Below are positions 3,388 to 53,339 of a DNA stretch of 64,000 nt, one piece after another. A program made the position numbers and the translations under genes. The notes beneath the pieces were generated by a model. That model had not been told where the DNA came from and made no database searches. It saw nothing but the letters and a program-made list of their open reading frames with translations. How positions within the stretch are numbered: the first letter of the stretch is position 1; each line of letters starts with the position of its first letter. The DNA is from Candidatus Auribacter fodinae (GTDB taxonomy: Bacteria; Auribacterota; Auribacteria; Auribacterales; Auribacteraceae), in the NCBI GenBank assembly GCA_003599815.1, contig QZJZ01000005.1, forward strand, positions 33,410 through 97,409. The letters run 5' to 3'.

Positions 3388-4259
3388 ACGATGGGGCTGT
3401 TGCTTTCTCTGACGCACACAAGCAGATGGTTTTTGTTTACTGAGAGAAAAACCGGCGTGTAATGCGTTTCGCTGAAATCGAAATCCTTGGTAAAGATAAG
3501 GTTCCCCTCAGCGTCATATTTTTTGATCGTATTTTCCAGCATTCCGGAACCGACAAAAAAGCAGTCCAGTTCTTTGCTGTATGCTATGGATTCCCCGGTC
3601 AATTCCGTTTGTTGAAACGCGCCGTTTCTGAAGGTAAAGATGTTGCATGTTTTTCTCAGATTTGCGGTTTGGAAAAAGTCGATGATGTACAGCGTATCAT
3701 TGAAATACGCCAGTTGAATCGGGTATATGAAATTTCCCTGATAAGACGATATGTTGCCGTTCGGGTTAAGGTAATGCAGGATGCCCGACATTGCTTCACA
3801 GAAGTATATTCCGCCTTTATCGTCGGTGATGACAGACATAATCGCTTTATCTTTGAAAAACGGAATTTCGTCTTCCATGGCGCCGATAAGCTTGAAATCC
3901 TGTGAGAAGAGTTTAGCGGAGAATAATACTATATTGACAGTAGTCAATCCACTTACAATGTACATTTCCCTGTATGAGGTAATGGTGGACAGTTCCCATG
4001 GGTAGTGAGAACTCATCGCATATTTGTTGAGTATATTAAAATTAGTATCGGCTGAAATGATCTCTTTTGCTTTTCGATCGGACGAACTATTGTTAAATAA
4101 TATCTTTTCATTCACGCACGAGATTGTTCTGAAGTTCAGCACTGAGACGTCTGAGAGTAATGCCGTAGCTTTTTTATTATATCTGAGATAATAATCTTTT
4201 TGGAATTTTTCAGCGGTCAAAGTAATTTTCTTACTATCATTATTATCCATTTTATCCAC
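3372..4259 (-). CDS. Hypothetical protein, no recognisable motif
   Basis: 295-aa ORF convergent with and overlapping the asnB 3' end by 16 nt. No signal peptide. Confidence 0.4.
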   Translation of the reverse strand: MDKMDNNDSKKITLTAEKFQKDYYLRYNKKATALLSDVSVLNFRTISCVNEKILFNNSSSDRKAKEIISADTNFNILNKYAMSSHYPWELSTITSYREMYIVSGLTTVNIVLFSAKLFSQDFKLIGAMEDEIPFFKDKAIMSVITDDKGGIYFCEAMSGILHYLNPNGNISSYQGNFIYPIQLAYFNDTLYIIDFFQTANLRKTCNIFTFRNGAFQQTELTGESIAYSKELDCFFVGSGMLENTIKKYDAEGNLIFTKDFDFSETHYTPVFLSVNKNHLLVCVRESNSPIVYDIY

Positions 4260-4521
4260 GATATCTGGCTGTTTGGTTTGGCAATATTATAAATATTATT
4301 CCTTTGATATCAAATTACAGCGGAAGAAGCGAGCAAATTTTAATAAAAGATGACGAGGTTAGTATAAAACATCATCATATCAGAGAATATTTCAACAGTT
4401 AAATTTCGTTTCAGAAGAACATGATCCTGATTAACATTGTGGCATAATAAATGCTTTAAATTCTTTGAGTACCTCTGTCTTGCATTTTTATCATATTTAA
4501 TCATAAATAAAGGAGCATGGA

Positions 4522-6366
4522 ATGAATCCGGTATTGCAGGAAATAAAACAAGACAAAGCAGTAAAATTAAAGGCATACAAGGACAAGTTCGAAATGAGTT
4601 TGAATGACTGGATGCAATATCATCATTCCGAAATAGTTATGGATCAATGTTTCTATATGGGAGTTAAAACGCTAAAGAATCCAATGGATCTTTGGGTTTA
4701 TCAGGAGATCATATACTCTGTAAAGCCCGACGTGATTCTTGAAATTGGTAGTATGCACGGAGGTAGTACTCTTTATTTTGCAAACCTTCTTGATTCAATA
4801 GGGCGTGGACAAGTAATTTCTGTGGATATACAGCGCGATTATTACCAGATTGAACATGAAAGGGTGATAGAAATTACTGGTGACAGCGCATCACCGGAAG
4901 TAGTGAATAAAGTATATGACCTATGCAAGGATAAAACTGTCTTTATCATTCACGATGGAGAACATTCAAAAGTACAGGTGCTTAAAGATCTGAGAGCCTA
5001 TGCAGATTTAGTTAGCCTGAACAGTTACTTTATTGTTGAGGATACCACAAGCGAATTTTTAACCAAAAATGAACTATACGAGGGTCCGTTTGAAGCGGTT
5101 GAGGAGTTTTTAAGGGAATCATCGGATTTTATTGTAGACAATACTCGTGAACGATATCTGCTTACATATGCTATGAACGGTTTTTTAAAACGGATTCAGG
5201 TTAATAATAAAACTGCTGAAACACCAGCGTGCGTTATGAATAAATCAGTTGTATCCGGTAACGATCTTGCGCCATATCTTGCGGTGAGATACAGAATGAT
5301 TGTCTTATCAAACTATGTTAAATCCAATATGAATAGGCTTGATTACGAGAGTCAGGAAATACTCTGCGATCTCGGTCTCAATATGTATACGTTATTCAAG
5401 GATGTGCTGGATTTATCCTTTGGATCCATATCCTTACAAGGAAATACAGCTATATATGGATCTGGCGCATTTTGTGAAGTACTGGTTTCTACTTTGAACA
5501 GGTATCAAGATATCTTCCTCACTGCGATTGTGGAAAAAAACGAGGCTAAGCACGGTTCAACAATGCTTGGGTTGCCTGTTATATCGATAAATGATTTGGA
5601 AAGATATGAAATACGAAATATTCTTATTGCCTCATTGGCACACGGTCGCGAAATAGCGAAGCGTCTTGAGTATCTACGAAAGGAAAAGAATATTAGGGTT
5701 ATCCAACTTCCTCTTCAGCTATTATCTATTATGAATCCTAACATTGAATATGCGGATGAATTATTGAATACTTATCCCATCATAGCATCGGAGATGATGA
5801 GCCAAGAGCAGTTGTGTGTCATTATAAGAATGTTGGGAAAGGTTCTGATCGACAATGTGGATGGAGATATTGTTGAATTAGGTTGTAATTCCGGTTCCAC
5901 ATCGTTATTTATTCGTCGGATGCTGGATCATTACCAGAGTGATAAGAAGTATCATGTGTATGATTCGTTTGAAGGTTTGCCGGATCATACAGATTATGAT
6001 GTTCCCCAAAGCGGAATTCAGCGTTTTAAAGGGGAATGTTATACTACCAGAGATATATTTATCCAGAAATTCAACGAGGCTGGTCTTGTTTTGCCCGAAA
6101 TTAATGAAGGCTGGTTTAAAGATATCCCTGATGAGAAGTATCCCGATAAAATATCTTTTGCATTTTTTGATGGTGATTTCTATTCATCAATTATAGATAG
6201 TTTTGAGAAAGTGTATCATAAGTTATCGAGTAATGCGATTGTATGCATCCACGATTATCGAAACAGGAATTTACCGGGAGCCCGTAAAGCATGTGATGAT
6301 TTTCTGCATGATAAACCAGAAACTGTCTTTGAAATTGATGGTATAGGGTACATGGTAAAGATCTGA
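4522..6366 (+). CDS. Two-domain SAM-dependent O-methyltransferase fusion: N-terminal CmcI / rhamnosyl-O-methyltransferase-like, C-terminal TylF / macrocin-O-MT-like
   Basis: N-terminal KNPMDLWVYQEIIYSVKPDVILEIGSMHGGSTLYFA resembles the CmcI (cephalosporin-hydroxylase) family. C-terminal FAFFDGDFYSSIIDSF and IHDY resemble the TylF family DxDxYES core. RBS AAAGGAG. Confidence 0.55.
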   Translation: MNPVLQEIKQDKAVKLKAYKDKFEMSLNDWMQYHHSEIVMDQCFYMGVKTLKNPMDLWVYQEIIYSVKPDVILEIGSMHGGSTLYFANLLDSIGRGQVISVDIQRDYYQIEHERVIEITGDSASPEVVNKVYDLCKDKTVFIIHDGEHSKVQVLKDLRAYADLVSLNSYFIVEDTTSEFLTKNELYEGPFEAVEEFLRESSDFIVDNTRERYLLTYAMNGFLKRIQVNNKTAETPACVMNKSVVSGNDLAPYLAVRYRMIVLSNYVKSNMNRLDYESQEILCDLGLNMYTLFKDVLDLSFGSISLQGNTAIYGSGAFCEVLVSTLNRYQDIFLTAIVEKNEAKHGSTMLGLPVISINDLERYEIRNILIASLAHGREIAKRLEYLRKEKNIRVIQLPLQLLSIMNPNIEYADELLNTYPIIASEMMSQEQLCVIIRMLGKVLIDNVDGDIVELGCNSGSTSLFIRRMLDHYQSDKKYHVYDSFEGLPDHTDYDVPQSGIQRFKGECYTTRDIFIQKFNEAGLVLPEINEGWFKDIPDEKYPDKISFAFFDGDFYSSIIDSFEKVYHKLSSNAIVCIHDYRNRNLPGARKACDDFLHDKPETVFEIDGIGYMVKI

Positions 6367-6502
6367 TCGACAAGTCATCAGGAATACTCAAATATTCTTA
6401 ACTCTTTGGTATCGTCTCATCACTTTTGTAAAGTTAGAAATCTCTTAGTATACTAGTTGGTCTGTAATGCTGAACATATAATGTACATAAAAGTGGCAAA
6501 TA

Positions 6503-8719
6503 ATGGATATAGCTGTTATTTTTTCATTGTATGAGGATTCGTATCTTTTCAAGAGGTTTTTCGCGTGGGCAGAAGAAGTCAGCAAAGATAACTGTTCTTT
6601 TCATTTTATCCACCATTCTCAAAAAACTTTAAACAATACTATAGATTTTCCTGGAAAATATATTCATCTTGTTGACTACAAGGATGTTGTGCTTTATCTT
6701 GAGGAGAATGAAATTGATATTGTGCATTCGTATATCGGAGATAAAGTAACCTTCTTGGCGCGGGCGGCTGGAGTAAAACGGATAATTCAGCATCCTATAT
6801 CCAGTTATACTGAACTGGGAGTGGATTCTTACCCGGCAGACTGTATTTGTTGTTCCGATGAAAGTATGATTGGCCAGCTGAAAAAACAGTGTCCGCAAAA
6901 ACATATAGTTTCCATCAAAGACAGCATTAATATCGAGCCGGATCATAAGCCTCAGGATCTGCGGGATAAACTAGGTTTTAAATCCGGTGAAATCGTAATC
7001 GGTTTTGTCGGGAAATTATGGCGTCAGAAATATTTCGATAAGTTCATTTCAATGTTTTTGGAGTTATGCAAAAAAAATAAGAAATTGAAACTAGTACTCG
7101 ACGGGAGGACTTATAATAAACAATTTGAAGACTACCTTAATAGTAGGGTTGAATCAATATATTTTCATGATGATCCTGATGAACTGATCGCTAACTCGGA
7201 TATTTTGGTAATCAAGTCGGAAACATATTTTAATCCATATGGCGAAATTATTACTGAAAATGATCAAGAATATAACTGGTGGTTAATGCATGCAATGGCA
7301 TATGCTATCCCATTTATAACGATTTATAATAAGACTCAGAAACAAAGAAAGGAACTTATTAACGACAAAGAAAACTGTTTTGTCGTTGGCTTGGATGATA
7401 TGGCAGCTTATCAGGCAGCGCTCGCAGAACTAATCGATAATAAAAGAATCCGTGATACGTTTGGGCAAAACGGTAGAAAGATTCTGACAGAGGGTTACGG
7501 TGTAAATCTTGTAGCACAGCAATATAAAAAGCTTTATAACTATCTCTTGTCCGAACAGTTTGTGTCTGATTATCCATCAGCATCAAAAGATGCGGAGACC
7601 CATTTTCTGGGTAATATGATCGAACTGAAATCTCTTAAACTTGATCACAGAAAAGTGCTTGTTGTCCGTTCGGGAAGTCAAGTAAAAACAGAGGAATTGA
7701 TTACAAATATGACGAGAGCGTTTCCATCCGTGGAGTTGTCTCTTTGTTGTCATAAACGGAATTTGTCTGAAATGCGAAAATACGCAAATATCCATGAAAT
7801 TATTACCTATCAAAAATCCGATAGTTTTGATCAGGCAAGAATGAAAGCAGCCATTAAAAAGATTAATCGAAAAAAATATGATTATGTCTTTTTTGTCTTT
7901 AATAGTATTTTCCAGGAAATGACCCATCAGAATCTGTTGGATATTATCGTACAGTTACGTCCTGAATCAGGTATTGTAATATCGACGGGGAAACTCAACT
8001 TCCTTTATCCTTTTGTGCGGAAAGATGATATTGAGAGAAACCATCTTATAAATAAATATAAAAAAGCGCTGGACCCTGAGCAAGAATATGTGATTACTTC
8101 TCCATGGGAAAAGAATATTGCACATCTGCCGAAATGGGATCGATTTAAAATCGAGAAATACAGGGAAGTTATTAACTCCAGCAAAAAAATTCTTTGTTGC
8201 GGAGACCCCACTAATCCTATGTTCGGATTGTTTGAGGATGAACTAAAGGGTAAAGAACTCATTTCTGTTGATATCGTTGAAAAATGCAATCGTGATATAA
8301 TTGCAGATATTTGTGATTTACACATGATTGAGGATAACTCTATAGACGGTATTATATGTTATGCTATTTTAGAACATGTATATAATCCTTTCAAAGCAGT
8401 TGATGAATTGCATAGAATTTTAAAATCTGGTGGAAAAATAATGATGTTTGTTCCATGGATGTGGCGCCATCACTCGAATAAAAAAACATGCTTTGATTTT
8501 TATCGCTTCTCATGCGAGGGTGCCCGGTATTTGTTAAAAGATTTTTCCTATGTGGAATTGTCTCCTATACAGGGTAAACTGGAAGCGGTTTTTGTCTACG
8601 TCCTTCAGTTTATAAAATACCGGTCATTACTACACAAGCCGCTAGTCAAACTTATAAGAAGATTTGACAAGTGTACAGAAGAGGATCCTTCCGGATTTAA
8701 TATTTTTGCTGTTAAATAG
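6503..8719 (+). CDS. Glycosyltransferase (GT1/GT4-like) fused to a C-terminal class-I SAM methyltransferase domain
   Basis: Middle region GFVGKLWRQKYFDKFISMF...LVLDG is GT4-like. C-terminal ILCCGDP...DGIICYAILEHVYNP...LKSGGKIMM is Methyltransf_11-like. 738 aa. Confidence 0.5.
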   Translation: MDIAVIFSLYEDSYLFKRFFAWAEEVSKDNCSFHFIHHSQKTLNNTIDFPGKYIHLVDYKDVVLYLEENEIDIVHSYIGDKVTFLARAAGVKRIIQHPISSYTELGVDSYPADCICCSDESMIGQLKKQCPQKHIVSIKDSINIEPDHKPQDLRDKLGFKSGEIVIGFVGKLWRQKYFDKFISMFLELCKKNKKLKLVLDGRTYNKQFEDYLNSRVESIYFHDDPDELIANSDILVIKSETYFNPYGEIITENDQEYNWWLMHAMAYAIPFITIYNKTQKQRKELINDKENCFVVGLDDMAAYQAALAELIDNKRIRDTFGQNGRKILTEGYGVNLVAQQYKKLYNYLLSEQFVSDYPSASKDAETHFLGNMIELKSLKLDHRKVLVVRSGSQVKTEELITNMTRAFPSVELSLCCHKRNLSEMRKYANIHEIITYQKSDSFDQARMKAAIKKINRKKYDYVFFVFNSIFQEMTHQNLLDIIVQLRPESGIVISTGKLNFLYPFVRKDDIERNHLINKYKKALDPEQEYVITSPWEKNIAHLPKWDRFKIEKYREVINSSKKILCCGDPTNPMFGLFEDELKGKELISVDIVEKCNRDIIADICDLHMIEDNSIDGIICYAILEHVYNPFKAVDELHRILKSGGKIMMFVPWMWRHHSNKKTCFDFYRFSCEGARYLLKDFSYVELSPIQGKLEAVFVYVLQFIKYRSLLHKPLVKLIRRFDKCTEEDPSGFNIFAVK

Positions 8720-8797
8720 GCACCATATCGCTGATGAAGTGTGGTATCAGCCTTCCTCCGCAATCCACTGCGAATAAAAATCTTTTCAGCCCGCGAT

Positions 8798-8826
8798 TTG
8801 CAAAGATGGTTTTTATCGGCTATAAT
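8798..8826 (+). promoter_or_regulatory. Sigma-70-type promoter: -35 TTGCAA, 17-bp spacer, -10 TATAAT
   Basis: TTGCAA 8798-8803 and TATAAT 8821-8826 sit about 42 nt upstream of the PEP-CTERM gene ATG. An RBS AAAGGAAA follows. The same TTGCAA-17-TATA[TA]A architecture recurs at 49422-49450. Confidence 0.5.
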
Positions 8827-8867
8827 TTATATAGAAAAAATAATCAACCCGATAAAGGAAAACCTCG

Positions 8868-9569
8868 ATGCGCAACGTCTTCTCGCTGTCGTGTATATGC
8901 GTACTGCTTATATATGCGGCAGGCGTCTCTGCCTATGAACTGACATGGGATTACCTTGCTCGCACCACATGGGGCGACGGCTTCCGCCCTGACGGCGACA
9001 GTTACGGCAACACCGCTGTCTGGGACTACAAGTATACGCCGTTAAATTCCACAAGTTACGCGCTGTATCAGGCGCTTTCCAACTGGTATGAACCCTATGG
9101 GATGTGGTCGTACCTTCCTGTTCCCGGTGTTGCGGCTGATAACAACTGGCTGGTCGTCGCGGTTAATACTGCTCATCCCGGCAACCTGAATGACCTCGCG
9201 ATACAGTTCATCGCTCCGATGGACGGTGTGTATGACGTCTCTGTCCAGCTGTACAATTGGAACGGAGAAAATCTCAACGGCGCTGACGGGCAGGATTTCT
9301 ACCTGCAGAAAATGTCGTCCATTCTTGACACCGAAACCAATCCGGTGCATGGCACATCGGTTTTATCCGCGCAGGACGTATCACTGCTGGCGGGGGAGTC
9401 GCTCTTTCTGCGTATCAATATGAAAGCGAATTCACATTATGACAGCATATCGGTTCAGCAGTTTGTCGTCACCGGAACGTTTCCTGACCCGGTAGTCGTG
9501 CCTGAACCTGCGTCTGTCCTCCTGATGTTAGCCGGGTTAAGCGTCCTTATCCGCCGCCTGCGGCGATAA
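8868..9569 (+). CDS. PEP-CTERM sorting-domain secreted protein
   Basis: N-terminal signal peptide. C-terminal VPEPASVLLMLAGLSVLIRRLRR (PEP motif, TM helix, basic tail). Paralog of the partial gene at 63307-63981 (YELTWDYLARTTWG vs YDITWDYLERTGWG). Confidence 0.75.
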   Translation: MRNVFSLSCICVLLIYAAGVSAYELTWDYLARTTWGDGFRPDGDSYGNTAVWDYKYTPLNSTSYALYQALSNWYEPYGMWSYLPVPGVAADNNWLVVAVNTAHPGNLNDLAIQFIAPMDGVYDVSVQLYNWNGENLNGADGQDFYLQKMSSILDTETNPVHGTSVLSAQDVSLLAGESLFLRINMKANSHYDSISVQQFVVTGTFPDPVVVPEPASVLLMLAGLSVLIRRLRR

Positions 9570-46723: not shown

Positions 46724-47266
46724 ATGGATTGCCCTAAATGTGTCGGAACACTGGAAAAACAGGAACTTGTCGGTATAGCTATTGATGAATGTTGCATGTG
46801 CGAAGGCATCTGATTTGACGCAGGCGAACTTGAAGATGTGATAAAGCGCGATTCCGAAAATTTCGAGTACATAGATGTTGGACGTGAACAGTTTGACGGC
46901 AAGGAGTTCTCTGACCTTGCCGGGCAATTGAACGAAAAACTGGGAAAATGCCCCCGGTGCGGTGACTGTACAGTATTGCTTAAAAGTGAGTATAAGAATG
47001 ATAAATGCCCTGTTATTATTGATATATGCCCTCATGGGCACGGAGTATGGCTTGACGGCGGAGAAATCCTTCAGCTTCGTAAGCGGGGGTTGGTTAATGC
47101 GTGTGACAAAGCGGAATTTTATATGGATTTCATTGGTTATATATTTTCCAAAGACGGGTTTAACGATGCTGTAAGAGGCACAGCCCGCATAATACGCAAT
47201 CTCATCGAGAAGCTCAAATACAACGACGGCCTCACCAAAGAAACCGCCATGGAAAAAGAAGAGTAA
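46724..47266 (+). pseudogene. Double zf-TFIIB-type zinc-ribbon protein interrupted by an in-frame TGA (46811-46813) at the conserved Trp of the first zinc ribbon
   Basis: RBS AAAGGAG before ATG 46724. MDCPKCVGTLEKQELVGIAIDECCMCEGI-TGA-FDAGELEDV continues in frame to 47266. It then contains an intact second ribbon CPRCGDC...CPHGHGVWLDGGEIL, in which W occupies the position of the TGA. Confidence 0.5.
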
Positions 47267-47376
47267 AAAAAGTCTTTAGAGTACGAATGAATGTTTTTTA
47301 CTGAGGATAAAAGAAAAGCAGGGCCAACGAATTCGGCCCTGCTTTTTGTATATATAAAACCCAGAGGAGGAGAGGA

Positions 47377-47931
47377 CTATTCCATATCGCCCGGTTCCGG
47401 CGCTTCAGGCGCGTCCGGTTCTTCGTCAGGAGGTGCCATGTGGCGTCGCCGTTCGTGTCTCATCTTGCGTAATTCCTTGCGCGCTTCATGTTTTACATCC
47501 ATCTTATATTTCAGGGCGGCGTACTGTTCCGGAGTGAGGACTTTTTTCATCTCAAGCACGCTGTTAATGCGGTCTGTGATCAATTGTTTCTGCACGGATG
47601 CGAGTTCGTCAGCCAGCGTATTAAGCGCAGTCTGATCTGATTCCGGTTTATCAAGTTCGTTTTTGATTTGTTTATGGAGTTCGCGTTTTTTCTCGTAAAG
47701 CGCCTGTTTCTGTTCCTGTCCCTGTTTGCGCATTTCGGCGAGCCGTGCTGTTTGTTCGTCGCTCAGATCGAGTTCACGCATAATTTCTTCGATGTCGTCT
47801 TTCATTTTACCGTGCCGTTTTCCGTATCCGCCCGGCCCTTTCTCGTCGCAGAAATCCTGTGCCGGGGCAAATTCTGCCGCTGATAATAACAGGGCTGATA
47901 TCATCCATATTGATAAGGTTCGCAGTTTCAT
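47377..47931 (-). CDS. Periplasmic Spy/CpxP-family (LTXXQ) protein
   Basis: Signal peptide. LSDEQTARLAEM and LTPEQYAAL are LTXXQ motifs. Coiled-coil, with a P/E-rich C-terminus. Confidence 0.7.
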   Translation of the reverse strand: MKLRTLSIWMISALLLSAAEFAPAQDFCDEKGPGGYGKRHGKMKDDIEEIMRELDLSDEQTARLAEMRKQGQEQKQALYEKKRELHKQIKNELDKPESDQTALNTLADELASVQKQLITDRINSVLEMKKVLTPEQYAALKYKMDVKHEARKELRKMRHERRRHMAPPDEEPDAPEAPEPGDME

Positions 47932-49148: not shown

Positions 49149-49280
49149 GAAGTGTATTTTTTTGTTATAATATATGGCGATGAACAATTTTGAAGACAGT
49201 GAATAAGTTAATTTGTTTATAAAATAATTTATTAACTTAATAACTTATATATAAAAATATAGATTAAATAGTTTATTGAT

Positions 49281-49333
49281 TTAATTAGGGACACATCCCA
49301 ATTTTTTAATAATTGGGATGTGTCCCTAATTAA
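49281..49333. repeat. Perfect 23-bp inverted repeat with a 7-nt loop (53-bp palindrome)
   Basis: TTAATTAGGGACACATCCCAATT-ttttaat-AATTGGGATGTGTCCCTAATTAA. Located in the AT-rich divergent region between the ECF sigma gene and the PEP-CTERM gene. Confidence 0.9.
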
Positions 49334-49421
49334 AATACACTCTCCGTCGCTTGCATTAAAAAATGCTGTTCCGATTTCCTGCTAAAACGATAATGCATCT
49401 AAAGCAATCCTTAATAAATAA

Positions 49422-49450
49422 TTTGCAAAAATCAGCTGTACATGGTATAT
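49422..49450 (+). promoter_or_regulatory. Sigma-70-type promoter: TTGCAA, 17-bp spacer, TATATA
   Basis: TTGCAA 49422-49427 and TATATA 49445-49450, about 50 nt upstream of ATG 49502. Same architecture as the promoter at 8798-8826. Confidence 0.45.
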
Positions 49451-49501
49451 AACTTTATATATCGCAAATAATTAAACGTTAAGTATATAAAGGATAAAAT
49501 C

Positions 49502-50188: not shown

Positions 50189-50422
50189 CCCGATAATTCT
50201 TCAATCGTATTCCTTGATGGGCCGCTTTTTTAAAGGTGGTTCCAGCCGAAGCTGTCAATTGCGAACGAACGCAGGTTGTTCAGCGCTTTCATACGATGTC
50301 CGCGCATTGATCTTTTCGGCGCTTCGTTCTATGCTGAACTTGCGATAATCATTGACACGTCTTACACACTGGTTGATAATTTATCTTTTTCATGAGCGTA
50401 AAATTATCATAAAGGGAAAGCT

Positions 50423-51748
50423 ATGAAATTGCATCATACCTATGACTGCTTAAAACGTATGAATCCGGTACGCTTAGTAGCGTTGGGTTATATGTCATAT
50501 ATTTTTGTAGGGTTTGCTCTGTTATGCCTGCCGTTTATGCACCGGAACGCTGTCTGTGCTCTTGATAACCTTTTCATTGCCGCCTCCGCAGTATCAACGA
50601 CCGGGTTAACAACGGTTGCTGTAAATGAGGCTTATAATTTCTGGGGACAGTTGGTTATCCTTATTTTAATTCAATTAGGAGGTATAGGATATATGACCTT
50701 CAGTTCTTTTGTGATTTTATCCAGCAAAAAATATCTGGACGACAGGAAAAAAGATGTTGCCCATGTCGTGTTTAGTATACCAAGAAATTTTAAGATCGAA
50801 AAATTCATTTTAAGTGTTATTCTGTTTTCTATTGTAGTTGAGGCTGTTGGGGCGATAGGCTTATTTTTTGTATTCCTGCGTGAAGGTATACAACATCCTC
50901 TCTGGAATGCGATATTTCACAGTATCTCAGCGTTTTGTACGGCAGGTTTCAGTCTTTTTCCAAACAGTTTCGAGGGAATGTCCGCTAACTTCGGGCTTAA
51001 TGCAATTATTTCCGTATTGAGTATACTGGGCGCCATGGGGTTTATTGTATGTGTGGACGTGTGGCGCCTTATACGCGGGAAAGAGAAACATGTGACATTA
51101 ACTACGAAAGTCATTATTTCCATGACGCTCTGGTTGTTATGTATAGGCGGGGTTTTGATGTTTCTGACAGAATCCTATGGCGAGGGCGTTACTCCGGCGA
51201 ATAAACTGTTGTTCTCATTTTTTCAATCGATGACAGCGCTCACCACAGTGGGGTTCAACACGGTTACTGTCAGCACGTTGTCAAAATCGGCAATAATGCT
51301 GATCTGCATATTGATGATTATCGGCGCATCGCCTTCAGGTACGGGCGGCGGGTTGAAAACGACTACATTTTCAGCTATCTGGGGGTTGATGAAAAGTACT
51401 ATTAAAGGTGATAATGATGTCCGTATTTTCGGCGGGAAAGTGCCTGACGACCGGGTAAAGACCGCTGTGGCGACGCTCAGTTTATATATCTCGATGCTTC
51501 TTTTTGGAACGTATCTGCTTACACTGACAGAAAACGGGCAATTTCTGGATATTTTTTTCGAGTCGGCATCCGCTTTGGGAACTGTCGGGCTCAGCATGGG
51601 GCTTACTGCAGCGTTGACCTCGTTAGGAAAGATTGTAATAATCCTGATGATGTACATTGGGCGTGTCGGCCCGTTGACCTTCGGTATGGCTTTATATGTG
51701 AAACCGGAACTAATTTTTGACGACGCCAAAACCGATCTTGCCGTTTGA
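50423..51748 (+). CDS. TrkH/KtrB-family K+ transporter
   Basis: Repeated GxG selectivity-like loops (GTGGGLKTTTF) and 441 aa typical of the TrkH fold. Confidence 0.85.
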   Translation: MKLHHTYDCLKRMNPVRLVALGYMSYIFVGFALLCLPFMHRNAVCALDNLFIAASAVSTTGLTTVAVNEAYNFWGQLVILILIQLGGIGYMTFSSFVILSSKKYLDDRKKDVAHVVFSIPRNFKIEKFILSVILFSIVVEAVGAIGLFFVFLREGIQHPLWNAIFHSISAFCTAGFSLFPNSFEGMSANFGLNAIISVLSILGAMGFIVCVDVWRLIRGKEKHVTLTTKVIISMTLWLLCIGGVLMFLTESYGEGVTPANKLLFSFFQSMTALTTVGFNTVTVSTLSKSAIMLICILMIIGASPSGTGGGLKTTTFSAIWGLMKSTIKGDNDVRIFGGKVPDDRVKTAVATLSLYISMLLFGTYLLTLTENGQFLDIFFESASALGTVGLSMGLTAALTSLGKIVIILMMYIGRVGPLTFGMALYVKPELIFDDAKTDLAV

Positions 51749-51786
51749 TTTCATAAGGAGAGCGCTGGTATCTTTCCTGTCCCTGC

Positions 51787-53124
51787 TCAGATAATTTCTT
51801 CTTCCGGTTCGGTTGCAAAATCCTGAAGAACCTGATCCTCCACCTGATCAAAACGGATGTTCCATTTAGAAATTATATATTTTACCAAAGTCGGCACAGG
51901 TATGGTGGTGAGTATTGAAAGGCATACGATAGAGTTGAAAAATTCAGGTCTTATCATTTTGAGATGCAGAGCCACATTAGCCGCCGCGAGAGTCGCGGAC
52001 AGTTGCGGTACGGTCATCAATCCTGCACAAATACCTTTTGCGTTATTGAATCCTGATAGCCGCATGGCAACCCAACCCGATACTATTTTACTTGCGGTGA
52101 GCCCTACAAATGTCAGGACGACCATGGCGATATTTTCCCACGCGTTGAATAAAATTTTTAAATCCGTATTCATACCTATGGTCAGGAAAAGGAATGGAAC
52201 CAGAAAACCGTATCCCATTCCTTCGATTTTCCGGTGGAGGATCCGGTCGTTGTCATGAAATCCGGGCGCACGGACAATTGCCATACCAGCGACAAAAGCG
52301 CCAACAATGACACTAACGCCAATGAATTCGCCCACCAGAACAACTGCGAGTACGCCCACCAGAAAGAATGTCAGCCTCGAATCGTCGCTGTGATGTATCC
52401 GGGAAAAAACTTTCTGGGCAATAACGGGAATCAGCCACATGGATAACACGATGTAACCAACAATCGCTATAATAAATAACACAAAAAACCATGAACCCAG
52501 TGCAGACGGGTCAATATGGTCAAAAATGGAAACGCTTCCGGGAATGCTTAGCGATGTTGAATGACGGCTCATTTGAATACAAACTGCCAGTAACACAAGG
52601 CTGGCGAGATCCGTTATGACAGTCGATGCCAGCACGGCAATGCCGAAACGCGTCCGGGTTACTTTCAATTCCCTGATTACGGGAAAAACAATGCCGACAG
52701 AATGAGACGCGAACAAAGAAGCGTACACCAGTTTGCCGATCGTATGCCCGGGCTCAAAGAAAGCATAAACAAAATAACCTGCAAGTGCAGGTATCGCAAA
52801 GGTTAAAACACTCAGCCATGCAACGGCCTTCCGTTCAAGGCGCAGGACAGAGAGATGAACTTCCATGCCTGCCAGCACCATAAGAAATATAAGCCCCAGA
52901 AGGCCAAGTACGTTTAAAACAAGATAAATATCGGCGGTCGGGTATCCTCGTCCCAGAAAATAATTGAGCTTTCGGATAACATCAAGCATATTCGGGCCAA
53001 TAACTATCCCAACCATCATCATTGAAACAACGGAAGGGATGTGAAACCGCCGCAACAGCGCCGGTACTATGGCGGTCAGCGCCATGAGAAACATAAACAT
53101 AATCAAAAAGGTCAAACCGCTCAT
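51787..53124 (-). CDS. CPA2-family cation:proton antiporter (Na+/H+ exchanger-type) lacking a C-terminal RCK domain
   Basis: 445 aa, about 12 TM segments. N-terminal FHIPSVVSMMMVGIVIGPNML is typical of the Na_H_Exchanger fold. Confidence 0.75.
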   Translation of the reverse strand: MSGLTFLIMFMFLMALTAIVPALLRRFHIPSVVSMMMVGIVIGPNMLDVIRKLNYFLGRGYPTADIYLVLNVLGLLGLIFLMVLAGMEVHLSVLRLERKAVAWLSVLTFAIPALAGYFVYAFFEPGHTIGKLVYASLFASHSVGIVFPVIRELKVTRTRFGIAVLASTVITDLASLVLLAVCIQMSRHSTSLSIPGSVSIFDHIDPSALGSWFFVLFIIAIVGYIVLSMWLIPVIAQKVFSRIHHSDDSRLTFFLVGVLAVVLVGEFIGVSVIVGAFVAGMAIVRAPGFHDNDRILHRKIEGMGYGFLVPFLFLTIGMNTDLKILFNAWENIAMVVLTFVGLTASKIVSGWVAMRLSGFNNAKGICAGLMTVPQLSATLAAANVALHLKMIRPEFFNSIVCLSILTTIPVPTLVKYIISKWNIRFDQVEDQVLQDFATEPEEEII

Positions 53125-53339
53125 CGAAAACTCCAGCTTAAAGTGGTAAAAAGACTTGTAAATAGTTGTTTATTAAAATATTCCGCTGTTAAAAGGTAAT
53201 TGTCGGAATTATAACGAATGACTGAGTATCGCCCAGCTTGTTTCGCCGGAATAATCAAAAACCGTGAGTGTCATTATATGACAACCTCCGTAAACCGCAT
53301 ATTAAAAAAATATTAAAAGACTCATAATATTGTGTGATA

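What the first reader, a model, noticed from the sequence alone, without database searches (positions are those of the whole stretch)
49281..49333. 53-bp perfect palindrome (23-bp arms) in the divergent promoter region between the ECF sigma operon and a PEP-CTERM gene
TTAATTAGGGACACATCCCAATT-ttttaat-AATTGGGATGTGTCCCTAATTAA has no mismatches. It is not followed by a T-run, so it is not a typical intrinsic terminator. It sits where promoters for both divergent transcription units are expected. It could be a high-affinity operator for a dimeric regulator. It could equally be a cruciform-forming element or the remnant of a small mobile element.
Basis: seen in the sequence. Interest (0 to 1): 0.5.

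Follow-up and report, generated by a model that had tools for sequence, protein, structure and literature searches.

The report
Inverted pair of tyrosine-transposase end repeats
The perfect 53-bp palindrome is real, but it is not a gene-specific operator: it is two head-to-head copies of a 22-23-nt repeat that flanks a family of small "RAYT/TIRYT" tyrosine-transposase genes in many bacterial phyla, so it is most likely a small mobile-element footprint sitting in the slack DNA between two promoters.

Summary
Window 49281-49333 is a perfect inverted repeat with 23-bp arms (24 bp with 49280/49334) and a 7-nt loop. It is unique in the window and far beyond chance.

The operator interpretation is not supported. 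Each arm equals a conserved unit, WAATTRGGGACACATCCCAATT. This unit occurs in 69 loci of species-representative genomes from Omnitrophota, Nitrospirota, Thermodesulfobacteriota, NC10, Planctomycetota and other phyla.

- In all 10 complete cases found by motif, and in all 5 independent loci chosen by protein similarity alone, the unit flanks a ~223-aa HUH/Y1 transposase gene.
- That protein has the signature of TnpA-Y1 subclass 2.1 (group-1 RAYT, "TIRYT"). The published terminal repeats of that class share GGGGWSAS; ours read GGGGACAC or AGGGACAC.
- Solitary pairs are almost always convergent: 20 convergent, 1 divergent, 5 tandem.
- One unrelated contig has the same 24-nt arms, with another 7-nt loop, at the stop codon of its Y1 gene.

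The closest relative (97% identical DNA) keeps only one arm and lacks 79 bp, while both flanking promoter blocks are conserved.

Verdict: a new member of a known kind, a TIR/REP-like doublet. The source genome's copy number and its own Y1 gene could not be checked.

The parts
49281..49303 (+). Left repeat unit (TTAAT-TAGGGACACATCCCAATT), one copy of the family-wide 22-23-nt terminal repeat. It is itself a small bulged hairpin (AATT.GGGA/TCCCAATT).
   Evidence: The position-frequency table of 120 instances shows conservation from -4 to +17, which matches this arm exactly. The single unit folds at -3.9 kcal/mol, z -3.4. It is the only block kept in the relative's variable intergenic core, with 1 difference in 23, at the family-polymorphic R position 49287.
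49304..49310 (.). 7-nt spacer/loop (ttttaat) between the two units.
   Evidence: The spacer is the variable part of the family. Spacers of 5-112 nt occur in other doublets (one further pair abuts with no spacer). L088 has identical 24-nt arms around a different 7-nt loop, aacgatt.
49311..49333 (-). Right repeat unit, the perfect reverse complement of the left unit. Its convergent (-> <-) orientation is the same as that of the two repeats that bracket Y1 transposase genes.
   Evidence: Orientation statistics are 20 convergent, 1 divergent and 5 tandem. This unit is absent from L001 and L074.
49280..49334 (.). Full hairpin-forming palindrome (24-bp arms plus 7-nt loop).
   Evidence: repeat I1. 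DNA fold -25.2 kcal/mol, z -10.4.
49304..49382 (.). 79-bp segment (loop + right unit + 49 nt of unique sequence) that is present in the window and L073 but missing in the sister lineage (L001, L074). The indel starts exactly at the 3' foot of the left unit.
   Evidence: Alignments A1 and A2. The 49-nt part has no significant match in any other fetched locus.
49178..49396 (.). Variable core of the intergenic region in which the element sits. It has 26 substitutions in about 140 alignable nt against the relative, compared with 2.7% over the surrounding 10.8 kb. It is bounded by well-conserved promoter-proximal blocks.

Best explanation
The palindrome is a convergent doublet of the terminal repeat of a "TIRtron"/REPtron-like family. 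Each 23-nt arm is one copy of WAATTRGGGACACATCCCAATT. In many anaerobic, mostly uncultivated phyla this unit brackets, in inverted orientation, a ~223-aa HUH/Y1 tyrosine transposase of TnpA-Y1 subclass 2.1 (group-1 RAYT, "TIRYT"). The same unit also occurs as solitary singlets and convergent doublets in intergenic DNA.

**Shown**
- Identity of the arm with the family unit.
- The fixed geometry of the unit around the Y1 genes.
- The orientation bias of doublets.
- The extragenic location of the units.
- The presence/absence polymorphism at this locus.

**Inferred, by analogy with IS200/IS605 TnpA and E. coli TnpA-REP (established biochemistry of the superfamily)**
- The Y1 enzyme recognises the unit as a small bulged hairpin on single-stranded DNA.
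- It cleaves and rejoins next to it.
- This creates, moves or deletes such units.

The doublet has the topology of a TIRtron that has lost its gene, or of a REPIN. At this locus it is most likely a passenger in the unconstrained middle of a divergent intergenic region. It lies about 90 nt upstream of both candidate promoters and is not part of the regulation of the ECF-sigma or PEP-CTERM genes.
For: **The motif is dispersed and taxonomically clustered.** The exact 18-mer TRGGGACACATCCCAATT was found in 69 loci of species-representative genomes. The taxa are not a random sample: Omnitrophota, Nitrospirota, Thermodesulfobacteriota/Deltaproteobacteria, NC10, Planctomycetia, Nitrospinota, Aminicenantes and Caldisericum. 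Up to 5 loci come from one genome, and many sit at contig ends.

**The adjacent gene is a Y1 transposase.** It matches PF01797 Y1_Tnp (E about 1e-16). Its best NCBIfam match is REP-associated tyrosine transposase (71 bits, below the cut-off of 80). NHVH, LWE, YIExNP and SS are invariant in 10 sequences. These are the signatures listed for subclass 2.1 in Table 1 of PMC6006769.

**The geometry around the gene is fixed.** In 9 of the 10 complete Y1 genes the unit starts exactly 56 nt before the ATG, in the gene's orientation (54 nt in L066; L034 carries a doublet upstream). A TTGACA-17-TAnAAT promoter follows directly. An inverted copy lies 63-95 nt past the end of the Y1 match.

**The association holds without motif-based selection.** All five independent Y1 loci chosen by protein similarity alone carry the core next to the gene (L087, L088, L089, L092-95, L096-97).

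**Doublets are strongly oriented.** There are 20 convergent, 1 divergent and 5 tandem pairs. Compact hairpin doublets like the window's occur in L088 (identical 24-nt arms, overlapping the Y1 stop codon) and in L083 (5-nt loop).

**Instances are extragenic.** 76% lie outside ORFs of 120 aa or more, although only 18% of bases do.

**The published description fits.** TIRs of TIRYT genes share GGGGWSAS, lie at similar distances from the gene, are often self-complementary, and occur as singles, dimers or clusters in moderately abundant families (PMC3733652). Plasmid homologues from cultured bacteria are flanked by 26-38-nt TIRs containing GGGGACAG or GGGGTCAG.

**The locus is polymorphic.** It is a doublet in the window and L073, and a singlet minus 79 bp in L001 and L074, while the flanking promoter blocks are conserved.
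Against: - No Y1 transposase gene is present in the 64-kb window or in L001. None named Auribacter appeared among the best 120 hits of two protein searches.
- There is no second copy of the motif in the 64 kb. The source genome (Candidatus Auribacter fodinae) is in neither scanned DNA collection, so neither copy number nor a cognate enzyme in this organism has been shown.
- Copy numbers seen elsewhere are low, at 7 or fewer exact 18-mer matches per genome. This is far from classical REPIN populations.
- No enzyme of subclass 2.1 has been shown biochemically to act on its TIRs (statement in PMC3733652). PMC6006769 found no REP-like structures next to subclass 2.1 genes.
- The direction of the singlet/doublet change (insertion or deletion) cannot be polarised without an outgroup.
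- The 49 extra nt beside the right arm are unexplained.
Confidence: 0.82

Rival explanations
1. In-situ relic. A complete TIRtron (repeat - Y1 gene - inverted repeat) once sat at this very spot. An internal deletion then collapsed it to repeat - 7 nt - repeat. On this view the palindrome did not arrive as a doublet.
For: - The doublet has exactly the topology of the two gene-flanking repeats, with the AATT ends facing inward.
- Degraded Y1 genes between repeats exist elsewhere, for example L056.
Against: - No trace of Y1 coding sequence or of the TTGACA promoter remains between or beside the arms.
- The same compact doublet design, with identical 24-nt arms and a 7-nt loop, occurs beside an intact Y1 gene in L088, so it exists as a unit of its own.
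- The sister lineage has a singlet, not a gene.
Confidence: 0.12
2. Operator or activator site. The palindrome is a high-affinity binding site for a dimeric host regulator that controls the divergent ECF-sigma operon and/or the PEP-CTERM gene.
For: - It has perfect dyad symmetry and lies in a divergent intergenic region.
- Subclass 2.1 Y1 proteins carry a C-terminal HTH-like domain (PMC6006769). A double-strand-binding protein for this sequence is therefore conceivable.
Against: - The right half-site is absent in the 97%-identical sister lineage, which keeps both genes and both promoter-proximal blocks.
- The palindrome sits about 87-90 nt upstream of the candidate -35 boxes (and my reading).
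- The same 22-nt unit occurs next to unrelated genes in at least 8 phyla, with no recurrent link to ECF sigma or PEP-CTERM genes.
- The spacer between half-sites varies from 5 to 112 nt in other doublets, which is incompatible with a fixed dimer geometry.
Confidence: 0.04
3. Domesticated site. The repeats are no longer mobile. They are binding or cleavage sites of a domesticated, single-copy Y1 protein with a host function, such as genome structuring or replication-associated single-strand DNA processing. The window's doublet would be one such functional site.
For: - The Y1 genes P0204 and P0171 sit in the same housekeeping neighbourhood in several independent assemblies (4 loci; 2 loci). This is RAYT-like stability.
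- The 22-nt unit is invariant although the proteins are only 44-67% identical.
- Bertels et al. 2017 argue that RAYTs are domesticated (PMC5581495).
Against: - The site is dispensable between two near-identical lineages.
- Group 1 is the RAYT group that most resembles insertion sequences, with duplicates and plasmid copies.
- Pseudogenised Y1 copies and several copies on one contig occur in L056 and L017.
Confidence: 0.1
4. Chance palindrome or sequencing/assembly fold-back artefact.
For: None, beyond the fact that the source is a metagenome-assembled genome.
Against: - The expected number by chance is about 2e-8 (my own arithmetic).
- Fold z-score is -10.4.
- The identical sequence occurs in a separately held JGI contig.
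- The same arms occur in an unrelated contig, L088.
Confidence: 0.01

Closest known systems
[quoted passage not shown] 2013, PMC3733652). These equal TnpA-Y1 subclass 2.1 (Quentin et al. 2018, PMC6006769) and RAYT group 1 (Bertels et al. 2017, PMC5581495).
   Same: - The Y1/HUH protein is about 223 aa with NHVH, W-E, YIExNP and SS motifs (compared with Table 1).
- The gene is bracketed by inverted repeats at a near-fixed distance.
- The repeats contain GGGGWSAS (here GGGGACAC; the window's own arms read AGGGACAC).
- The repeats are partly self-complementary and occur as singles, dimers and clusters, in low to moderate copy number and in many phyla.
   Different: - The described examples come from cultured Proteobacteria, Acidobacteria and similar groups, and share only the 8-nt motif.
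- Here a 22-nt unit is essentially invariant across at least 8 mostly uncultivated phyla, although the proteins are only 44-67% identical.
- Quentin et al. reported no REP-like hairpins for subclass 2.1, whereas this unit is a small hairpin.
- The window holds only the solitary doublet, without a gene.
REPINs and REP sequences mobilised by RAYTs of groups 2 and 3 (Bertels & Rainey 2011, PMC3116915; E. coli TnpA-REP).
   Same: - Two short, individually palindromic units lie in inverted orientation with a short spacer and form one long hairpin.
- They are extragenic.
- The same unit flanks a single Y1 gene in inverted orientation.
- Singlets occur at orthologous positions as presumed decay products.
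   Different: - There is no GT[AG]G tetranucleotide at the 5' foot; the corresponding positions here read WT[AG]G.
- Copy numbers are units per genome rather than tens to hundreds.
- The same repeat sequence is shared across phyla, whereas REPINs are lineage-specific and vertically inherited.
- The protein scores below the NCBIfam REP_Tyr_transpos cut-off and has no sequence match to any solved structure.
IS200/IS605 insertion sequences and their palindrome-associated miniature derivatives.
   Same: - The transposase is of the HUH/Y1 type (PF01797).
- There are hairpins at the element ends.
- Gene-less miniature derivatives are made of the two ends.
   Different: - The Y motif is Y---NP rather than Y---Q (compared).
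- The ends here are true inverted repeats, which IS200/IS605 ends are not.
- No tnpB is adjacent.
- The Y1 gene is stably placed among housekeeping genes in several assemblies.

Membership tests
TIRtron / TIRYT terminal-repeat family (TnpA-Y1 subclass 2.1, RAYT group 1) | The repeat flanks, in inverted orientation, a gene for an HUH/Y1 transposase-like protein. | tested here: met
   This holds for the repeat family. Ten complete Y1 genes were found through the motif, and 5 independent loci chosen by protein only also carry it. It was not shown inside the source genome: there is no Y1 gene in the window.
TIRtron / TIRYT terminal-repeat family (TnpA-Y1 subclass 2.1, RAYT group 1) | Protein signature of subclass 2.1: HuH = NHVH, W[EQ], Y motif YIELNP-like (Y---NP), SS motif, length about 238 aa. 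| tested here: met
   NHVH, LWE, YIExNP and SS are invariant in alignment A3, with lengths of 222-234 aa, compared with Table 1 of PMC6006769. The Pfam match is Y1_Tnp.
TIRtron / TIRYT terminal-repeat family (TnpA-Y1 subclass 2.1, RAYT group 1) | The terminal repeat contains the consensus GGGGWSAS. | tested here: met
   The family unit reads T-R-GGGACAC. About 31% of instances, including the sister lineage, read GGGGACAC. The window's two arms read AGGGACAC, one mismatch at the polymorphic first G. Cultured plasmid homologues have GGGGACAG and GGGGTCAG.
TIRtron / TIRYT terminal-repeat family (TnpA-Y1 subclass 2.1, RAYT group 1) | Solitary copies of the repeat (single, dimeric, clustered) are dispersed in the same genome as the gene. 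| tested here: inconclusive
   This is seen in other genomes. Examples are the Planctomycetia MAG CAZXJX01 (5 loci, one of which, L023, holds only a weak partial Y1 match), the NC10 MAG (4 loci) and the Loosdrechtia contig with several copies plus Y1 genes. For Candidatus Auribacter fodinae only 64 kb plus about 5 kb could be read, and it holds this one locus.
TIRtron / TIRYT terminal-repeat family (TnpA-Y1 subclass 2.1, RAYT group 1) | The Y1 enzyme binds, cleaves or mobilises the repeat. | not testable with these tools
   This needs biochemistry or mobilome sequencing. It is also unproven in the literature for this subclass (PMC3733652).
REPIN (REP doublet forming a hairpin) | Two REP units in inverted orientation, separated by a short spacer and able to form one hairpin. 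| tested here: met
   Each unit is itself a small hairpin. Convergent orientation is the rule in the family.
REPIN (REP doublet forming a hairpin) | The unit is highly over-represented in the host genome (tens to hundreds of copies) and forms a replicating population. | tested here: not met
   There is one locus in 64 kb, and 7 or fewer exact matches per genome in the other hosts. The full source genome was not available, so for Auribacter itself this is only a lower bound.
REPIN (REP doublet forming a hairpin) | Conserved GT[AG]G tetranucleotide at the 5' foot of the REP hairpin (canonical REPs of subclasses 2.2, 2.4, 2.5, 2.7 and 2.8). | tested here: not met
   The positions read W-T-[AG]-G. 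G at the first position occurs in 3% of 120 instances. The definition is from PMC6006769.
Operator of the divergent ECF-sigma / PEP-CTERM promoters | Conserved at the orthologous position in close relatives and overlapping, or adjacent to, the promoter elements. | tested here: not met
   The right half and 56 further nt are missing in L001 and L074, while the promoter blocks are conserved. The palindrome lies about 87-90 nt upstream of the candidate -35 boxes (my reading).

The most novel reading that the evidence does not exclude
Group-1 RAYTs (TIRYTs) have so far been regarded as not associated with REPINs. In uncultivated anaerobic phyla they may nevertheless drive a genuine REPIN-like system. 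Its 22-nt hairpin unit is invariant across at least 8 phyla although the enzymes have diverged to about 45% identity, which implies either horizontal spread of enzyme plus repeat or extreme co-constraint. On this reading, the singlet/doublet difference between two 97%-identical Auribacter lineages would be a caught-in-the-act Y1-mediated event. It starts exactly at the 3' foot of the unit, and the two arms are perfectly identical.
Probability: 0.25. Interest if true: 0.55.

Novelty: new member of a known kind. Interest (0 to 1): 0.3.

Why it matters
- **For annotation.** The result removes a tempting but wrong regulatory reading of a striking palindrome next to an ECF-sigma operon. It also supplies a simple recognisable tag (WAATTRGGGACACATCCCAATT, usually beside a ~223-aa Y1 gene) for a repeat family that breaks assemblies and is present in many candidate phyla.
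- **For the RAYT/REPIN field.** It adds a case in which the least understood and largest RAYT group (group 1, subclass 2.1, TIRYT) is tied to a well-defined hairpin-forming repeat. That repeat has REPtron-like geometry, occurs as REPIN-like doublets, shows cross-phylum sequence identity, and is polymorphic between two close lineages. Together these give a concrete substrate for biochemical tests of an enzyme class that has none.
- **For the two flanking genes.** Nothing here suggests that the element matters to them.

Tried and rejected
- **Rfam.** A search of the whole window at gathering thresholds gave no match, so this is not a known RNA element.
- **Terminator reading.** Rejected: there is no T-run and the flanking genes are divergent.
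- **Exact look-ups of window proteins.** The PEP-CTERM protein and a right-end protein are not on record. Walking off the left end of the window gained only about 4.7 kb, so I stopped.
- **Metagenome scan with the 23-mer arm.** It gave 11 loci, none from the source sample. The copy number in Auribacter therefore stayed untested.
- **Viral-contig scan.** It gave two hits that lack the flanking WAATT-R context and look like chance matches in coding DNA.
- **Protein searches with two Y1 proteins, hoping for an Auribacter-named homologue.** None appeared in the best 120 of either search.
- **Solved structures.** No sequence-level match.
- **Literature search for the motif string.** Only irrelevant primer hits.
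- **The 49 nt next to the right arm.** I looked for relatives elsewhere and found none. An 11-nt match to the promoter spacer of L012 is probably chance (my rough estimate is p about 0.07).
- **Short contigs of about 0.9 kb that carry only the Y1 gene.** I checked whether they end exactly at the repeats, which would indicate a collapsed multicopy element. They do not.
- **CRISPR repeat idea.** Rejected: there are no regularly spaced arrays.

Full report
**1. Observation.**
Window 49281-49333 reads TTAATTAGGGACACATCCCAATT-ttttaat-AATTGGGATGTGTCCCTAATTAA. The arms are perfect and extend by one more pair (49280/49334), which gives 24 bp.
- It is by far the longest inverted repeat in the window; the next are 19 nt at 84-89%.
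- Neither the 16-mer (3 mismatches or fewer) nor the 11-mer core (1 mismatch or fewer) occurs anywhere else in the 64 kb.
- As single-stranded DNA it folds at -25.2 kcal/mol, against -5.2 +/- 1.9 for shuffles (z -10.4).
- A perfect 23-bp-arm repeat is expected about 2e-8 times in a window of this size (my arithmetic).
- There is no Rfam match in the window.

**2. Source and orthologous loci.**
The sigma factor's 90% cluster names the organism Candidatus Auribacter fodinae / Candidatus Auribacterota. The next homologues are only 46-50% identical, so just one close lineage is available for comparison.
- A JGI contig (L073, sample 3300007352) has the identical 425-bp intergenic region, including the palindrome.
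- An NCBI MAG (L001, GCA_040756935.1) and a Logan assembly (L074) have a 346-bp region with only the left arm (TTAATTGGGGACACATCCCAATT). They lack 79 bp of the window (49304-49382: loop, right arm and 49 further nt).

L001 is 97.3% identical to the window over 10.8 kb. Within the intergenic region the promoter-proximal blocks are 97.5-100% conserved. The middle (49178-49396) carries 26 substitutions in about 140 alignable nt. The left arm differs at only one position, 49287 (A/G).

A sigma-70-like site for the sigma operon lies at 49167-49194(-). I read TTGCAA-17-TATATA at 49423-49451(+) for the PEP-CTERM gene (inference). The palindrome lies about 87-90 nt upstream of both. It therefore sits in the unconstrained core between two conserved promoter blocks and is dispensable in a near-identical lineage.

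**3. The arm is a widespread repeat.**
A scan of one genome per species for TRGGGACACATCCCAATT gave 69 loci.
- The hosts are taxonomically clustered rather than random: Omnitrophota, Nitrospirota/Thermodesulfovibrionia, Thermodesulfobacteriota/Deltaproteobacteria, NC10, Planctomycetia (including Candidatus Loosdrechtia), Nitrospinota, Aminicenantes and Caldisericum.
- Up to five loci come from one genome, and many lie at contig ends.
- A few hits inside coding regions (Acetatifactor, Ardenticatenaceae) look like chance.
- A position-frequency table of 120 instances shows unselected conservation of the four bases 5' of the 18-mer. The unit is therefore W-A-A-W-T-R-GGGACACATCC-C-A-A-T-T, which is exactly the 23-nt arm of the window.
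- 76% of instances lie outside ORFs of 120 aa or more, whereas only 18% of bases do.
- Each unit is itself a small hairpin: AATT(A)GGGA/TCCCAATT at -3.9 to -7.4 kcal/mol, z -3.4 to -4.4.

**4. Link to a Y1 transposase.**
In about ten loci the unit is followed by tcTTGACA-17-TAnAAT and an ORF that begins MPRIAR...PHH.
- The ~223-aa product matches PF01797 Y1_Tnp. It matches NCBIfam REP-associated tyrosine transposase below the cut-off (71 against 80 bits). It has no sequence match among solved structures.
- In 9 of the 10 complete genes the unit starts 56 nt before the ATG in the gene's orientation (54 nt in L066; L034 has a doublet upstream), and an inverted copy lies 63-95 nt past the end of the Y1 match.
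- The association is not an artefact of searching with the motif. Five independent Y1 loci picked only by protein similarity all carry the core next to the gene (L087, L088, L089, L092-95, L096-97).
- L088 is decisive for the doublet as such. The stop codon of its Y1 gene overlaps TTTAATTAGGGACACATCCCAATT-aacgatt-AATTGGGATGTGTCCCTAATTAAAA. These are the window's 24-nt arms around a different 7-nt loop. L083 has a comparable compact doublet with a 5-nt loop.

**5. Doublets.**
Among instances with 3 mismatches or fewer, adjacent pairs are convergent (-> <-) 20 times, divergent once and tandem five times. The convergent count includes the window and its duplicate L073. Spacers range from 5 to 112 nt (one pair abuts), mostly 7-34. 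This is the orientation of the two gene-flanking repeats. A doublet therefore has the topology of an element without its gene, or of a REPIN. The variable spacing argues against a fixed-geometry dimer operator.

**6. Comparison with what is known.**
An alignment of ten proteins has NHVH, LWE, YIExNP and SS invariant. These are the signatures that Quentin et al. list for TnpA-Y1 subclass 2.1, which equals Bertels' group 1 (PMC6006769). That paper equates subclass 2.1 with the TIRYTs of Di Nocera et al.
- TIRYTs are Y1 genes flanked by terminal inverted repeats that share GGGGWSAS and lie at similar distances from the gene. The repeats are sometimes self-complementary and form moderately abundant families of single, dimeric or clustered repeats (PMC3733652).
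- Our unit reads GGGGACAC in its G variant.
- Plasmid homologues from Pseudomonas aeruginosa and Iodobacter fluviatilis (36-37% identical, annotated "transposase") are bracketed by 26-38-nt inverted repeats containing GGGGACAG and GGGGTCAG.
- Bertels et al. report that group 1 has the widest host range, some duplicates and plasmid copies, and flanking 16-mers with about 12 occurrences per replicon (PMC5581495). This fits the low copy numbers seen here.

The feature is thus a member of a described kind. Three things go beyond the descriptions:
- The conserved repeat is 22 nt long and is invariant across phyla, although the proteins are 44-67% identical.
- The unit has hairpin character, whereas Quentin et al. 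found no REP-like structures for subclass 2.1.
- It occurs in candidate phyla.

**7. Mechanism.**
*Shown:* sequence identity of the arms with the family unit, the geometry around Y1 genes, the orientation bias, the extragenic location, and polymorphism at this locus.
*Inferred* from the established biochemistry of IS200/IS605 TnpA and E. coli TnpA-REP: the Y1 enzyme recognises the unit as a hairpin on single-stranded DNA and cuts and rejoins beside it, which generates, moves or removes units.

Two details fit a repeat-directed event, but neither proves it:
- The 79-bp indel begins exactly at the 3' foot of the retained unit.
- The two arms are perfectly identical, although the surrounding core has diverged by about 18% between the lineages.

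Whether the window gained the right arm or the sister lineage lost it cannot be decided without an outgroup. The 49 extra nt have no relatives in the fetched loci.

**8. What remains open.**
No Y1 gene lies in the window or in L001. The source genome is absent from both scanned DNA collections. No Auribacter-named Y1 protein surfaced. The copy number and the cognate enzyme in this organism are therefore untested. A regulatory side-effect of the hairpin on the neighbouring promoters is not excluded, but no evidence supports it.

**9. Verdict.**
The operator reading is not supported, and the mobile-element-remnant reading is supported and made specific. Novelty: a new member of a known kind. Interest is modest (0.3). 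The main residual interest is the cross-phylum invariance of the repeat and the possible REPIN-like behaviour of group-1 RAYTs.

Noticed in passing
L007:6952, L019:2631, L048:1984, L056:5933; also L029, L036, L043, L052, L057, L059 and both ends of the element in L087: Short tandem duplications (period 9-12 nt) of the outermost bases of the repeat plus its A/T-rich flank abut the 5' (outer) end of many units. Examples are gaaattagg-gaaattagg-gaaatTAGGGACAC and ggggaataata x3. A strict test found them at 4 of 100 outer ends against 0 of 101 inner ends. In L087 they are mirrored at both ends of one element. They may be a footprint of repeated cleavage and rejoining, or of slippage at the cleavage site. 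This is unexplained.
   Followed up: partly
window 50275-53323 vs L001:114-884: The sister lineage (L001) appears to lack about 3 kb that in the window encode a TrkH-type cation transporter (50423-51748) and a Na+/H+ exchanger (51787-53124). L001:1-127 also repeats part of the PEP-CTERM gene at its contig end.
   Followed up: no
window 49178-49396: The middle of the intergenic region has about 18% substitutions against the sister lineage, compared with 2.7% over the surrounding 10.8 kb. The last 105 nt before the PEP-CTERM start codon are 100% identical. This pattern delimits the likely promoter and 5'-UTR blocks.
   Followed up: partly
window 47307-47353: There is an inverted repeat ATAAAAGAAAAGCAGGGCC / GGCCCTGCTTTTTGTATAT (19 nt, 84%, 9-nt loop) with A- and T-runs on either side. 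It lies between the convergent genes 46838-47266(+) and 47377-47931(-) and looks like a bidirectional intrinsic terminator.
   Followed up: no
window 4001-9000: A 5-kb stretch has markedly lower G+C (0.34-0.39 against about 0.46-0.50 elsewhere) and raised GC skew. It may be a horizontally acquired segment, and the neighbourhood holds glycosyltransferase and radical-SAM genes.
   Followed up: no
L092-L095 and L096-L097: Identical Y1 genes sit in the same housekeeping neighbourhood in several independent assemblies: between a phosphomutase gene and mnmG/gidA in one case, and after an NADH-dehydrogenase-like operon in the other. This is RAYT-like positional stability rather than insertion-sequence-like scatter. 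In contrast, the Loosdrechtia contig (L056, L017) holds several Y1 copies, some of them frameshifted.
   Followed up: partly
L005, L012, L017, L021, L040, L047, L056, L064, L071, L078, L079: The inner end of the upstream repeat is followed within 0-3 nt by a near-consensus TTGACA-17-TAnAAT promoter for the Y1 gene, and the ATG lies at a fixed 56 nt from the start of the unit. A protein bound to the repeat would occlude the -35 box, which suggests autoregulation.
   Followed up: no
protein hit lists: Many Y1 homologues (more than 2,300 at E <= 1e-30) sit on contigs of only 0.7-2 kb. This suggests that the gene plus its repeats often breaks metagenome assemblies. The three short contigs inspected do not end exactly at the repeats.
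   Followed up: partly
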